NCBI RefSeq assembly: GCF_054482525.1
Contig: NZ_CM137006.1
Direction: 5' to 3' (one strand)
Length of the DNA stretch: 64,000 nt
Shown: piece by piece, positions 21,001 through 24,000 of the stretch
Layout: each line of letters begins with the position of its first letter
Position numbering within the stretch: position 1 is the stretch's first letter
Position numbers: made by a program

Positions 21001-24000
21001 GTTTGATGATTACGATCGGGACGATGTGGCCGGGTTGCTGAAAGACAGGCTGGAGCAGGCGCAACTGGATCTCGACAGCGCGCTGGAGATGGTTCGCAGC
21101 TTATGTGAACCCGTCAAAACCCCGCGCAGCCTGCTGGACTATCAGCACTATTTTTGCGGTGAATCAGGAGAGAATCAGACTTCGTTAAACGAAAAAGAGG
21201 CGCTGCGCCTGACATTTTACCAGTGCGTCGCCCGTCTGCTACGCGCTTATGCCAGCATCGCCAATGAAATGCCGGAAGCAGGCTACACTGCCGAAGAGGT
21301 AGAGAGCATTCGCGCCGAAGTCGCTGAATTCGAAAAACTGCGCTATGAGATTAAGCTGACCAGCGGCGATCTTCTGGATATGAAGCGCTTTGAACCCGCT
21401 ATGCGTCATTTACTGGATATGTATGTTCGCGCCGATGGTAGCGAAGTGCTGATGGATTTTGAAGAGTTAAGTCTGATTGAACTGATTGTCGAGAAAGGCT
21501 TGGCGGCGACCGTCGCCCTGCCGGATGATATCCGTAATAATCAGGATGCGATGGCGGAAACCATCGAAAACAACGTGCGCAAAACCATCGTGGATGAAAA
21601 CCCGGTTAACCCAAAATACTATGGACGCATGTCGCAGCTGCTGGATGAACTGATTACCCTTCGCCGACAAAATGCGCTCAATTATCAGCAGTATCTGGAA
21701 CGTATCCGCGATTTGTGTAAACAGGTCATCCGCCCGGAGCAAACCGCCGGAGCGTGCTACCCTGCCACCATGGATACACAAGCAAAGCGCGCCTTCTATG
21801 ATAACTTCGGCCACGACGAGGTACTGGCGACCCGCATAGATACGACGATTCGCTATACCAAAAGGGCAGAGTGGATTGGCGATCGTTTTAAAGAACGGGA
21901 AATTGCCAACGCATTACGTGAAGAGACCGCCAGCTATAATATTGATATTGATGAGGTGATAGCGCTTGCCCGTCAGCAGAAGGAATATCACTGATGCCAA
22001 TCATGCAAATAGGCTCGTTACACTTGCTGGTCAACCGTAAGGCGATTAAGAATCTGCATATCAGCGTGCTGCCGCCTGATGGCAAAGTACGCGTTTCAGC
22101 GCCGGAACATATGACGGAGACGGCGATTCGTATGGCGGTTGCTTCACGCTTTCGCTGGATCAGAAAACAGCAGCAGGATTTCGCCAGACAGCCTCGTCAA
22201 TCAGAGAGGGAAATGGTCAGCGGAGAGTGCCACTATCTTTGGGGCCGAAGATATCGCCTACTTGTGATTGAGCGTCACGGGCGTCACGAAGTAAAAGTTG
22301 CAGGAAATAATAAGCTCCAGCTTTATGTTCAACCAGGAACCCGTGATGAAAATAAGGCATTGGCGTTAAGTGAATTTTATCGACATGAACTAAAACAGCA
22401 GGTGGCTAAGCTTCTACCTGAATGGCAGGACCGAATCGGTGTTCCCCTAACATTCTGGGGCATCAAAAAGATGAAAACCTTTTGGGGCACCTGTAACACT
22501 ACAACAAAACGAATCTGGCTCAATCTGGAGCTAATTAAGAAGCCGCCGGAGTGTCTGGAGTATATTCTGGTGCATGAACTGGTTCATCTTCTGGAACGTC
22601 ACCATAATGCTCGCTTCCGGTTGCATATGGATCGGTTTATTCCTGACTGGCGTGAGCGTCGGGATTTGTTAAATAATATGCCGTTAGCGTTTGAGGCATG
22701 GGAGTATTGATTGAGCCTGTAACTGTTTTTTGTCCATAAATTAACCTTCATTTGATGCTGGATTGAACATATCAAAATCAGACAATTACACAAATCTATG
22801 TACAGGCTCTTCAATTTGTTTTTGATCGCTGATGTGACTGACAACAAACGCTCACGGAACACTAAATCCCGCTCTTCAGACGTTAACTCGCCTCGCTCAA
22901 TAAGCTCTCTGATAGAATCTCGTGGCGTTGGCGTGACTACTTCAAAACAAAAAGTCTCACCATTTTTCTCGGCGACAAAGTCTGGTCCAGCATCCTTGCT
23001 TTTAATGTCGCTAAAGCCCATCTCCATAAGGTAGCCTGAGTTTAACGGACACTCCTTCGTAAGGACGCTGTAAGCAGAAACGCAAGTTCAGAGCGACTAC
23101 GAACTCGAACCACAATCTGCCAGTTGCGCCAAATCTGCTGAACCAGACGTTCGCTCCTACAGCACCAAATCAGGTCTGGGTGGCGGACCTGACGTATGTT
23201 GCCACACAGGAGGGATGGTTGTACCTCGCTGGCATCAAAGATGTTTATACGTGCGAAATTGTCGGCTACGCCATGGGAGAGCGCATGACAAAAGAGCTGA
23301 CAGGTAAAGCCCTGTTTATGGCGCTCAGGAGCCAGCGCCCACCTGCCGGGCTAATCCATCACTCTGATCGAGGTTCACAGTACTGCGCATACGATTACCG
23401 GATCATACAGGAGCAGTTTGGTCTGAAAACGTCAATGTCGCGTAAAGGTAACTGTTACGACAACGCTCCGATGGAAAGCTTCTGGGGAACGCTGAAAAAT
23501 GAGAGCCTGAGCCACTATCGTTTTAATAACCGGGATGAAGCCATCTCAGTAATACGGGAATACATTGAGATTTTCTACAATCGTCAGCGTCGTCACTCTC
23601 GTCTGGGGAATATCTCCCCGGCAGCCTTCAGGGAAAAATATCATCAGATGACTGCTTAAAAAAGAACAAATGGTAGTGTCCGCTATTGCCAGTACACCTC
23701 AGGTATCAAAAAGCGATAGATGCAGCTAATACACGACATAACCAAGAAATAAATCATTAAACGACAACACTTAATACCATATTGTGAAGATGTTCAGACA
23801 TGGCGGAATTCCCCTATTCTTTGTTGGCACTTACAACAGACTATATTCCGCCATATCTGTCTTTATTGTGTATAAACCATCGATACTGATGTTTGATAGT
23901 GCTAAATAATCATTGGCGCAATCACAAAGCCTAATGCCACTCCAGCAATAATTCCCCCCAACCCAGGCAGCATAAATGGATGATTCAGCACATATTTGCC

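What the first reader, a model, noticed from the sequence alone, without database searches (positions are those of the whole stretch)
22840..23659. IS3-family transposase remnant abutting a truncated gene stub after the R-M locus
Only the 3' two-thirds of an IS3-type OrfB is present (no orfA, no left end), adjacent to a 60-codon protein-like stub on the opposite strand. This looks like a deletion boundary marking the right edge of the R-M island.
Basis: seen in the sequence. Interest (0 to 1): 0.3.

Follow-up and report, generated by a model that had tools for sequence, protein, structure and literature searches.

The report
Decayed IS600 scar beside gene fragment
This is ordinary genomic debris in an E. 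coli genomic island: an insertion sequence (IS600) that has lost its middle, next to a short internal piece of a destroyed neighbouring gene. Together they mark where the restriction/DarTG defence module was spliced onto an unrelated block of genes.

Summary
The window is E. coli, 99.9% identical to strain AH65, where RefSeq already annotates this IS600 pseudogene.

- **IS600 copy (23027-23701).** It is 675 bp and keeps both ends. A 578-bp internal deletion between two CTTC repeats removed orfA, the frameshift site and the OrfB N-terminus. A further 10-bp deletion is seen in only 7 genomes.
- **The stub (22810-23026, minus strand).** It is codons 107-178 of a 413-aa gene.
  - That gene sits intact beside the same hsdM-hsdS-darT-darG-hsdR-M48 module in strain C4 and 4 other complete genomes.
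- **Right side of IS600.** IS600 abuts the last 59 nt of a Sel1/TPR gene.
- **Junction evidence.**
  - The two flanks are unrelated and there is no target-site duplication.
  - 337 genomes share the right junction and 188 share the left.
  - So this is a module junction inside a larger composite island, not the island's chromosomal edge.
- **Mobility or function.** There is no sign of either.

This is an ordinary finding of low interest.

The parts
21994..22710 (+). M48/YgjP-like metallopeptidase gene, the last gene of the hsdM-hsdS-darT-darG-hsdR-M48 module (context)
   Evidence: Pfam YgjP-like, E = 1.4e-61. RefSeq annotation of AH65.
22713..22809 (-). 97-bp terminal remnant of IS1414 (IS256 family). 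It comprises the outer 30-nt inverted repeat (22780-22809), the 5' UTR and the first 8 codons of the transposase (ATG at 22737-22735). It is truncated internally 2 nt after the M48 stop codon.
   Evidence: 97.9% identical to full-length IS1414 in strain FDN-9 (L005 2501-2597). The inverted repeat arms of the full element end at L005 2597, which corresponds to window 22809. The same remnant is present in E2348/69 and in L016-L019.
22810..23026 (-). Internal fragment (codons 107-178 of 413) of a hypothetical-protein gene. The protein has a PD-(D/E)xK-like core and is the native convergent neighbour of M48.
   Evidence: 70/72 aa identical to P0037 residues 107-178. 98.2% nucleotide identity to L016rc 8707-8927. 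Intact gene sits beside the same R-M/DarTG module in L016-L019 and strain C4.
22809..22810 (.). Breakpoint of a 1001-bp deletion, flush with the IS1414 outer terminus. The deletion removed a 295-bp spacer plus the 3' 706 bp of the 413-aa gene.
   Evidence: Window versus L016rc: 7706-8706 is missing and there is no microhomology at the junction.
23027..23030 (.). 4-nt junction (TAAG) whose origin is ambiguous. Either it is IS600 positions 1-4 (TGAG) with G2->A, or it is the gene's AAAG with A->T and IS600 lacks its first 4 nt.
   Evidence: Three-way comparison: gene CTCCAAAAGCC, window CTCCATAAGGTAGCC, IS600 TGAGGTAGCC.
23027..23058 (+). IS600 left end (IS positions 1-32, left inverted repeat)
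   Evidence: 30/30 identity of 23029-23058 to IS600 positions 3-32.
23058..23059 (.). Junction of the 578-bp internal deletion (IS600 positions 33-610) between CTTC repeats at IS positions 29-32 and 607-610. The deletion removes orfA, the frameshift region and the first 108 residues of the orfB frame.
   Evidence: Alignment to the full-length 1264-bp IS600 of Shigella sonnei plasmid L002. The junction is present in 188 genomes.
23064..23066 (.). Site of a secondary 10-bp deletion (AGCTAAGGCT, IS positions ~617-627)
   Evidence: The 10 bp are retained in strain WCHEC020031 (L006). In the 40 rows listed, 7 genomes match the window's junction at 100% (they lack the 10 bp) and the other 33 match at 90.7%.
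23059..23701 (+). IS600 positions 611-1264. It contains the 3' 197 codons of orfB (23066-23659, with the DDE core) and the right inverted repeat ending in CA at 23701.
   Evidence: About 99% identity to IS600. Pfam rve, E = 2e-21. RefSeq pseudogene 'IS3-like element IS600 family transposase, missing N-terminus'. DDE motif positions.
23702..23760 (+). Last 59 nt (19 codons plus stop) of a Sel1/TPR-repeat protein gene, the original IS600 target
   Evidence: Strain SCU-101 is an empty site. Homology to its TPR gene starts exactly at 23702, and that gene's CDS ends at the base corresponding to 23760.
23902..25200 (-). DcuC-like anaerobic C4-dicarboxylate transporter gene, the first intact gene of the right-hand module (context)
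   Evidence: ORF. Annotation.

Best explanation
The locus is a non-functional scar made of insertion-sequence debris, at the joint between two modules of a composite E. coli genomic island.

Reading left to right, it contains:
1. The end of the type I R-M/DarTG/M48 module.
2. A 97-bp IS1414 terminal remnant.
3. Codons 107-178 of the module's native neighbour, a 413-aa gene encoding a PD-(D/E)xK-like protein.
4. A 675-bp IS600 copy that keeps both ends but has lost its interior.
5. The last 59 nt of a Sel1/TPR gene.

Shown steps:
- (a) IS600 once inserted 20 codons before the stop of the Sel1/TPR gene.
- (b) The IS600 interior was removed by a 578-bp deletion between two CTTC tetranucleotides. 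A 10-bp deletion followed in a small sub-lineage.
- (c) A separate 1001-bp deletion, ending exactly at the IS1414 terminus, removed the 3' 235 codons of the 413-aa gene.

Inferred step:
- (d) The left IS600 junction, inside the 413-aa gene, most likely comes from a second IS600 insertion at codon 106/107. Homologous recombination between the two IS600 copies would then have fused the R-M/DarTG block to the TPR-tail, dcuC-like, racemase, hypT block and discarded what lay between.

Why nothing here is expected to work:
- There is no orfA, no frameshift site and no DNA-binding N-terminus.
- The left terminus reads TA instead of the canonical TG.
- The gene fragment lacks a start, a stop and 83% of its codons.
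For: - **IS600 anatomy.** 23029-23058 equals IS positions 3-32 (30/30). 23060-23701 equals IS positions 620-1264 (98.9%).
- **CTTC microhomology and 10-bp deletion.**
- **What the deletion removes.** orfA lies at IS 65-367 and the A-run at 316. The retained part is orfB-frame residues 109-305, with the DDE motifs present.
- **Empty TPR site.** SCU-101, with homology starting exactly at 23702.
- **Shared right junction.** Found in 337 genomes. In O104:H4 and strain 504211, IS600 is instead cut by IS1 at IS position 439.
- **Intact neighbour gene.** It sits next to the same module in L016-L019 and strain C4.
- **Genome counts.** 5 genomes carry the intact arrangement and 188 carry the scar.
- **IS1414 terminus.**
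- **No target-site duplication here.** The flanks are CCA and GGT, whereas the reference IS600 copy has a 3-bp duplication, TGG/TGG.
Against: - Neither hypothetical intermediate is present in 5,426 complete E. coli genomes. This applies to TPR gene | IS600 left end and to IS600 right end | 5' part of the 413-aa gene. Step (d) therefore stays an inference.
- The 4-nt ambiguity at 23027-23030 allows a non-transpositional, microhomology-based origin for the left junction.
- The flush deletion at an already truncated IS1414 end has no established mechanism.
- Expression of the remnant ORF (GTG at 23180) was not tested.
Confidence: 0.85

Rival explanations
1. IS600 was truncated from its 5' side, losing its left end, by one deletion that also clipped the neighbouring gene. 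That single deletion boundary is the right edge of the R-M island.
For: orfA and the OrfB N-terminus are absent. RefSeq labels the CDS 'missing N-terminus'. The adjacent gene is truncated.
Against: The left terminal 30-32 bp of IS600 are present and identical to the reference. The loss is internal, between CTTC repeats. The gene's second truncation is a separate 1001-bp deletion at the IS1414 end. The region lies inside a larger island.
Confidence: 0.05
2. The 675-bp element is a non-autonomous, MITE-like IS600 derivative. It transposed into the 413-aa gene using IS600 transposase supplied in trans.
For: Both inverted repeats are retained around an internal deletion. IS600 copies are common in E. 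coli, so transposase in trans is plausible.
Against: There is no target-site duplication (CCA versus GGT). The right flank is the old TPR-gene insertion site, shared with longer IS600 copies in O104:H4 and strain 504211 that still carry part of the DNA deleted here. The deletion junction alone occurs in 188 genomes, and the junction together with the stub flank also occurs in 188. This gives no sign of copies at other loci. The left terminal dinucleotide is TA, not TG.
Confidence: 0.04
3. The left junction is not a transposition product. Illegitimate recombination at AG/AAG microhomology joined the 413-aa gene to a point 4 nt inside the IS600 left end. For example, a deletion may have run from the original TPR-side left flank into the gene.
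For: The 4 nt at 23027-23030 match the intact gene at 3 of 4 positions and IS600 at 3 of 4 positions. No reciprocal IS600|gene junction exists in complete genomes.
Against: It requires a random breakpoint to fall within 4 nt of the IS terminus. A single G->A change at IS position 2 explains the sequence equally well with an ordinary transposition junction.
Confidence: 0.2
4. The truncated transposase ORF (23180-23659, DDE core only) is expressed. It acts, for example, as a dominant-negative regulator of IS600 transposition.
For: An open 159-codon frame with all three DDE motifs is conserved in 188 genomes.
Against: There is no promoter-like site on the + strand upstream; the scan found 1 site on the minus strand against 2.7 expected. 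The start codon is GTG in a former internal position. The conservation is explained by recent common descent (98.6-99.9% identity). RefSeq marks it as a pseudogene.
Confidence: 0.03

Closest known systems
IS600 (IS3 family; 1264 bp, orfA/orfB with -1 frameshift, 3-bp target duplication)
   Same: About 99% nucleotide identity over all retained parts. The left and right terminal inverted repeats are present, as is the orfB DDE/rve catalytic core.
   Different: It lacks IS positions 33-610 (orfA, the frameshift site, the OrfB N-terminus) plus a further 10 bp. The left terminal dinucleotide reads TA. There is no target-site duplication. It is a dead, chimeric-flank copy already annotated as a pseudogene in RefSeq.
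IS1414 (IS256 family; the element known to carry astA/EAST1 inside its transposase gene, from my own knowledge)
   Same: 97.9% identity over the terminal 97 bp, including the 30-nt inverted repeat and the first 8 transposase codons.
   Different: Only 97 of about 1315 bp remain. The inner breakpoint lies 2 nt after the M48 stop codon and is shared with E2348/69 and strain C4. In the window, a 1001-bp deletion starts exactly at the outer terminus.
PD-T7-1 single-gene anti-phage system (Vassallo et al. 2022, PMC9519451), as a relative of the stub's parent gene
   Same: Six family members all give weak PADLOC PD-T7-1 hits over the same region (profile positions ~150-270). That region includes the stub (E = 1.6e-7 to 4e-4; the stub alone gives 0.0037). 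The genomic setting is next to R-M/DarTG or toxin-antitoxin genes.

Membership tests
IS600 / IS3 family | High nucleotide identity to the IS600 reference sequence | tested here: met
   98.9-99.2% over ~640 bp, plus 30/30 at the left end, against the 1264-bp copy in Shigella sonnei plasmid L002.
IS600 / IS3 family | Two terminal inverted repeats ending 5'-TG...CA-3' | tested here: inconclusive
   The right end ...CCTCA is intact at 23701. The left inverted repeat is present, but the terminus reads TA(AGGTAGCC) instead of TG. The 4-nt origin is ambiguous.
IS600 / IS3 family | orfA and orfB joined by programmed -1 frameshifting | tested here: not met
   orfA (IS 65-367) and the A-run (IS 316) lie inside the deleted 33-610 segment, which is absent from the whole window.
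IS600 / IS3 family | DDE (rve) catalytic core in OrfB | tested here: met
   Pfam rve E = 2e-21, rve_3 and rve_2. The motifs WVADLTY, HHSDRGSQY and NAPMESFW are retained.
IS600 / IS3 family | 3-bp target-site duplication flanking the element | tested here: not met
   The flanks are CCA (left) and GGT (right). The reference copy has TGG/TGG.
IS1414 / IS256 family | Terminal inverted repeat and adjacent transposase start | tested here: met
   22713-22809 is 97.9% identical to L005 2501-2597. The inverted repeat arm ends at the position corresponding to 22809.
IS1414 / IS256 family | Complete transposase gene and second inverted repeat | tested here: not met
   Only 8 codons are retained. The M48 gene lies where the IS interior should be.
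MITE-like non-autonomous IS derivative | Multiple dispersed copies, each with a target-site duplication | tested here: not met
   The deletion junction alone occurs in 188 genomes, and the junction with the stub flank also occurs in 188. There is no target-site duplication.
PD-T7-1 defence family (for the stub's parent protein) | Significant full-length match to the PADLOC PD-T7-1 profile | tested here: not met
   Only partial, weak matches (17-28 bits, about 70-110 of 452 profile positions).
PD-(D/E)xK nuclease fold (for the stub's parent protein) | Restriction-endonuclease-like alpha/beta core with conserved acidic residues | tested here: inconclusive

The most novel reading that the evidence does not exclude
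The 413-aa PD-(D/E)xK-like protein may be an uncharacterised anti-phage or accessory nuclease. The family has no Pfam domain. Within the 78 homologues retrieved it spans Enterobacterales, Pseudomonas, Burkholderia and Aeromonas, and it sits next to toxin-antitoxin or R-M/DarTG genes. On this reading it is natively paired with the type I R-M-DarTG-M48 cassette. Its near-universal destruction in E. coli (188 scarred against 5 intact complete genomes) would then reflect selection against it, or IS-driven turnover of defence genes. Separately, the deletion flush with a solitary IS1414 end could indicate transposase action in trans on a single orphan end.
Probability: 0.2. Interest if true: 0.35.

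Novelty: already known. Interest (0 to 1): 0.08.

Why it matters
It matters little in itself. Insertion-sequence remnants at module junctions of E. coli genomic islands are commonplace, and this one is already flagged as a pseudogene in RefSeq.

Three modest points are useful:
- It corrects the annotation. The element has an internal deletion with both ends kept, not an N-terminal truncation, and the unannotated stub and IS1414 remnant are now identified.
- It gives a dated series of decay steps that can serve as lineage markers: 337 genomes share the right junction, 188 share the left junction, and 7 carry the extra 10-bp deletion.
- It points to an uncharacterised, widely distributed PD-(D/E)xK-like gene as the native neighbour of the R-M/DarTG cassette. 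That gene could be tested for phage defence.

Tried and rejected
- **Missing IS600 segment elsewhere in the window.** None found. Only 23029-23058 and 23060-23701 match.
- **'HTH-like domain' ORF upstream of hsdM (13096-13335) as the lost IS3 OrfB N-terminus.** It is not. It has no IS600 similarity and is a distinct small protein.
- **Pfam on the stub and on full-length homologues.** No family.
- **Word-indexed protein search with the 72-aa stub.** Only one near-identical 100-aa ORF. The exhaustive phmmer search and a second search with P0002 were needed to reach the family and the intact E. coli gene.
- **Rfam on 21500-25500.** No RNA family.
- **Promoter and terminator scan.** Not above chance for promoters, and no + strand promoter for the remnant ORF.
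- **Chimeric-junction searches for the two presumed intermediates.** TPR gene|IS600 left end and IS600 right end|413-aa gene were each found in 0 of 5,426 genomes.
- **Test for MITE-like spread of the deletion derivative.** Negative.
- **The repeat finder on the window.** It did not report the IS600 inverted repeats, because they are only about 70% alike. They were established by alignment to the reference instead.

Full report
**Identity of the window.** The region 22700-23900 is 99.9% identical to E. coli strain AH65 (NZ_CP058302.1) and to about 180 other complete E. coli chromosomes. RefSeq annotates, in order:
- a type I R-M system interrupted by darT/darG (hsdM, hsdS, darT, darG, hsdR);
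- an M48/YgjP-like metallopeptidase;
- a pseudogene labelled 'IS3-like element IS600 family transposase, missing N-terminus';
- a DcuC-like transporter, an Asp/Glu (cysteate) racemase and a LysR regulator named hypT.

The window is collinear with AH65 from 1 to 59782, apart from one extra IS3-family element.

**Checking the observation.**
- ORF 23180-23659 hits Pfam rve, rve_3 and rve_2 (E = 2e-21 and weaker).
- I took a full-length 1264-bp IS600 from a Shigella sonnei plasmid as the reference. It has a TGG/TGG 3-bp duplication.
- Window 23060-23701 aligns to IS600 positions 620-1264 at 98.9%.
The left inverted repeat is therefore present.
- The window reads ...ACTCCTTC|GTAAGGA|CGCTG..., whereas IS600 has CTTC at positions 29-32 and again at 607-610. 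This is a 578-bp deletion between 4-bp repeats.
- The deletion removes orfA (IS 65-367), the A-run at 316 and the first 108 residues of the orfB frame. It leaves 197 codons that carry all three DDE motifs.
- A second, 10-bp deletion (AGCTAAGGCT) is specific to the window's sub-lineage. Strain WCHEC020031 still has those bases. Among the 40 genomes listed, 7 match the window's junction at 100% and the other 33 at 90.7%.
- No other IS600 segment exists anywhere in the 64-kb window. No full-length frame can be recovered by frame joining.

**The stub.**
- The minus-strand ORF beginning at 23027 is protein-like for 72 codons and then runs into unrelated sequence.
- A tblastn search of plasmids found a 349-aa hypothetical protein in E. 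coli plasmid pCh101 at 78% identity.
- An exhaustive phmmer search found relatives of about 350-410 aa.
- A search with P0002 found a family spread across Enterobacterales, Pseudomonas, Burkholderia, Aeromonas and Stenotrophomonas, with no Pfam domain.
- One member, P0037 (413 aa, E. coli), is 70/72 identical to the stub over residues 107-178.
- The contigs encoding P0037, and the complete genome of strain C4, show this gene intact. It lies convergent to M48, directly beside the same hsdM-hsdS-darT-darG-hsdR-M48 cassette.
- Only 5 of 5,426 complete genomes carry the intact arrangement.

**How the stub lost its 3' part.**
- The first 97 bp after the M48 stop codon (22713-22809) are the terminal remnant of IS1414, an IS256-family element.
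- The remnant contains the 30-nt inverted repeat and the first 8 transposase codons. It is 97.9% identical to a full copy whose inverted repeat ends at the position corresponding to 22809.
- The same remnant, with the same inner breakpoint, is present in E2348/69 and in the intact-gene contigs.
- The window is collinear with L016rc from 16361 to 22809. It then lacks exactly 1001 bp (L016rc 7706-8706: a 295-bp spacer plus the 3' 706 bp of the gene). Homology resumes over 22810-23030 at 98.2%.
- The deletion is flush with the IS1414 terminus and shows no microhomology. That suggests, but does not prove, involvement of the IS end.

**The IS600 flanks.**
- On the right, strain SCU-101 provides an empty site. 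Homology begins exactly at 23702, inside a Sel1/TPR-repeat gene whose last 19 codons and stop correspond to 23702-23760.
- The IS600 right-end/TPR-tail junction is shared by 337 genomes.
- In O104:H4 and strain 504211, the same insertion is cut on its left by IS1 at IS600 position 439, with different DNA beyond. These copies retain sequence that the window's copy has lost, so the arrangements are independent derivatives of one ancestral insertion.
- On the left, the three-way comparison is: gene CTCCAAAAGCC, window CTCCATAAGGTAGCC, IS600 TGAGGTAGCC.
- This leaves a 4-nt ambiguity at 23027-23030. Either the IS terminus carries G2->A, or the gene carries A->T and the IS lacks TGAG.
- Either way, the canonical TG terminus is absent. 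The flanks (CCA and GGT) are not a duplication and come from unrelated genes.
- The simplest history is recombination between two IS600 copies, one in the TPR gene and one in the 413-aa gene. That would fuse the R-M/DarTG block to the dcuC-like/racemase/hypT block.
- Searches with synthetic junctions found neither intermediate in complete genomes. This step is therefore inferred.

**Is the deleted IS600 a mobile MITE-like element?** No evidence supports this. The deletion junction without the stub flank occurs in 188 genomes, and the junction with the stub flank also occurs in 188. There is no target-site duplication. The only full-length matches in the plasmid collection are records that also carry the stub, meaning the same locus.

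**What the destroyed gene was.**
- Six family members give weak but positionally consistent PADLOC hits to PD-T7-1. One also hits PD-T7-5. The hits fall over the segment that includes the stub.
- PD-T7-1 is a single-gene anti-phage system found by functional selection (PMC9519451).
- An AlphaFold2 model built from a 27-sequence alignment has pLDDT 85.6.
- Foldseek against PDB found nothing significant. Its weak hits were dominated by Hjc, FokI and nicking-endonuclease chains.
- The stub covers the strands that carry invariant D121 and E134. A PD-(D/E)xK-like nuclease with a possible defence role is a reasonable but untested reading.

**Context and verdict on 'island edge'.**
- In AH65 the island DNA runs from a tyrosine integrase next to phoH to a tRNA-Ser about 65 kb away.
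- The scar lies in the middle of that DNA, about 35 kb from the integrase.
- It is therefore a junction between modules of a composite island, not the island's chromosomal boundary.

**Other checks.** No RNA family was found. No promoter signal exceeded chance.

**Overall.** The finding is real but ordinary.
- the left end of IS600 is present;
- the stub is a doubly truncated internal fragment;
- an IS1414 remnant and a second deletion are part of the structure.

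Noticed in passing
window 13375-22710: darT (about 17160-17816) and darG (about 17813-18880) lie inside the type I R-M operon, between hsdS and hsdR, and are followed by an M48/YgjP-like peptidase. 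The same cassette occurs in EPEC E2348/69 and strain C4. From my own knowledge, DarTG is commonly associated with type I R-M systems.
   Followed up: partly
window 22809/22810: A 1001-bp deletion ends to the base at the outer terminus of an already truncated, solitary IS1414 end, with no microhomology. Three different right-hand contexts are seen: strain C4 and L016-L019; E2348/69, which shares 68 bp of the C4-type flank and then diverges; and the window. The mechanism for a flush deletion at an orphan end is unexplained.
   Followed up: partly
window 47683-48992: A 1310-bp IS3-family element is present in the window but absent from the otherwise collinear AH65. It is 97% identical to an IS3-family copy in E2348/69 that is annotated with a programmed frameshift and an AL1L pseudoknot.
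   Followed up: no
window 59783-64000: Beyond the island's integrase end, the window is flanked by clpS/clpA. From my own knowledge of the K-12 map, this is the serW neighbourhood. In AH65 the same island end abuts phoH/efeUOB, with a tRNA-Ser at the far end. No tRNA is found in the window. This suggests the island sits at a different tRNA-Ser paralogue, or that an inversion or recombination has occurred between paralogous sites.
   Followed up: partly
window 23902-27274: A DcuC-like transporter (23902-25200, minus strand), an Asp/Glu racemase (25266-25985, minus strand) and a divergent LysR regulator labelled hypT (26330-27274, plus strand) form a conserved three-gene block present in about 348 genomes. 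RefSeq labels the racemase cuyB (cysteate racemase) in O104:H4. The block could be a cysteate or amino-acid utilisation module, and the 'hypT' name may be a paralogue mislabel.
   Followed up: no
L013 5084-7233; L007 2994-4894; L016 8001-9242: The roughly 410-aa family that the stub derives from has no Pfam domain. It is 76-79% identical to the Lonsdalea reference member in Pseudomonas and 82% in Burkholderia. It sits just downstream of toxin-antitoxin pairs (ccdAB in Lonsdalea, yacAB on pCh101) or beside R-M/DarTG in E. coli. This pattern is typical of mobile defence cargo.
   Followed up: partly
L004 3001-3098 (K-12-type cvrA-dadX intergenic region): A 98-bp IS1414-end-like sequence, 92% identical to window 22712-22809, is present once in most E. 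coli genomes between cvrA and dadX (4,619 of 5,426 genomes have some match). PGAP calls a partial 'hypothetical protein' there.
   Followed up: no
window ~27392-27851: A frameshifted IS200/IS605 tnpA pseudogene follows hypT, and then DUF3927 and other gene fragments. This is further IS debris flanking the dcuC-like/racemase/hypT block.
   Followed up: no
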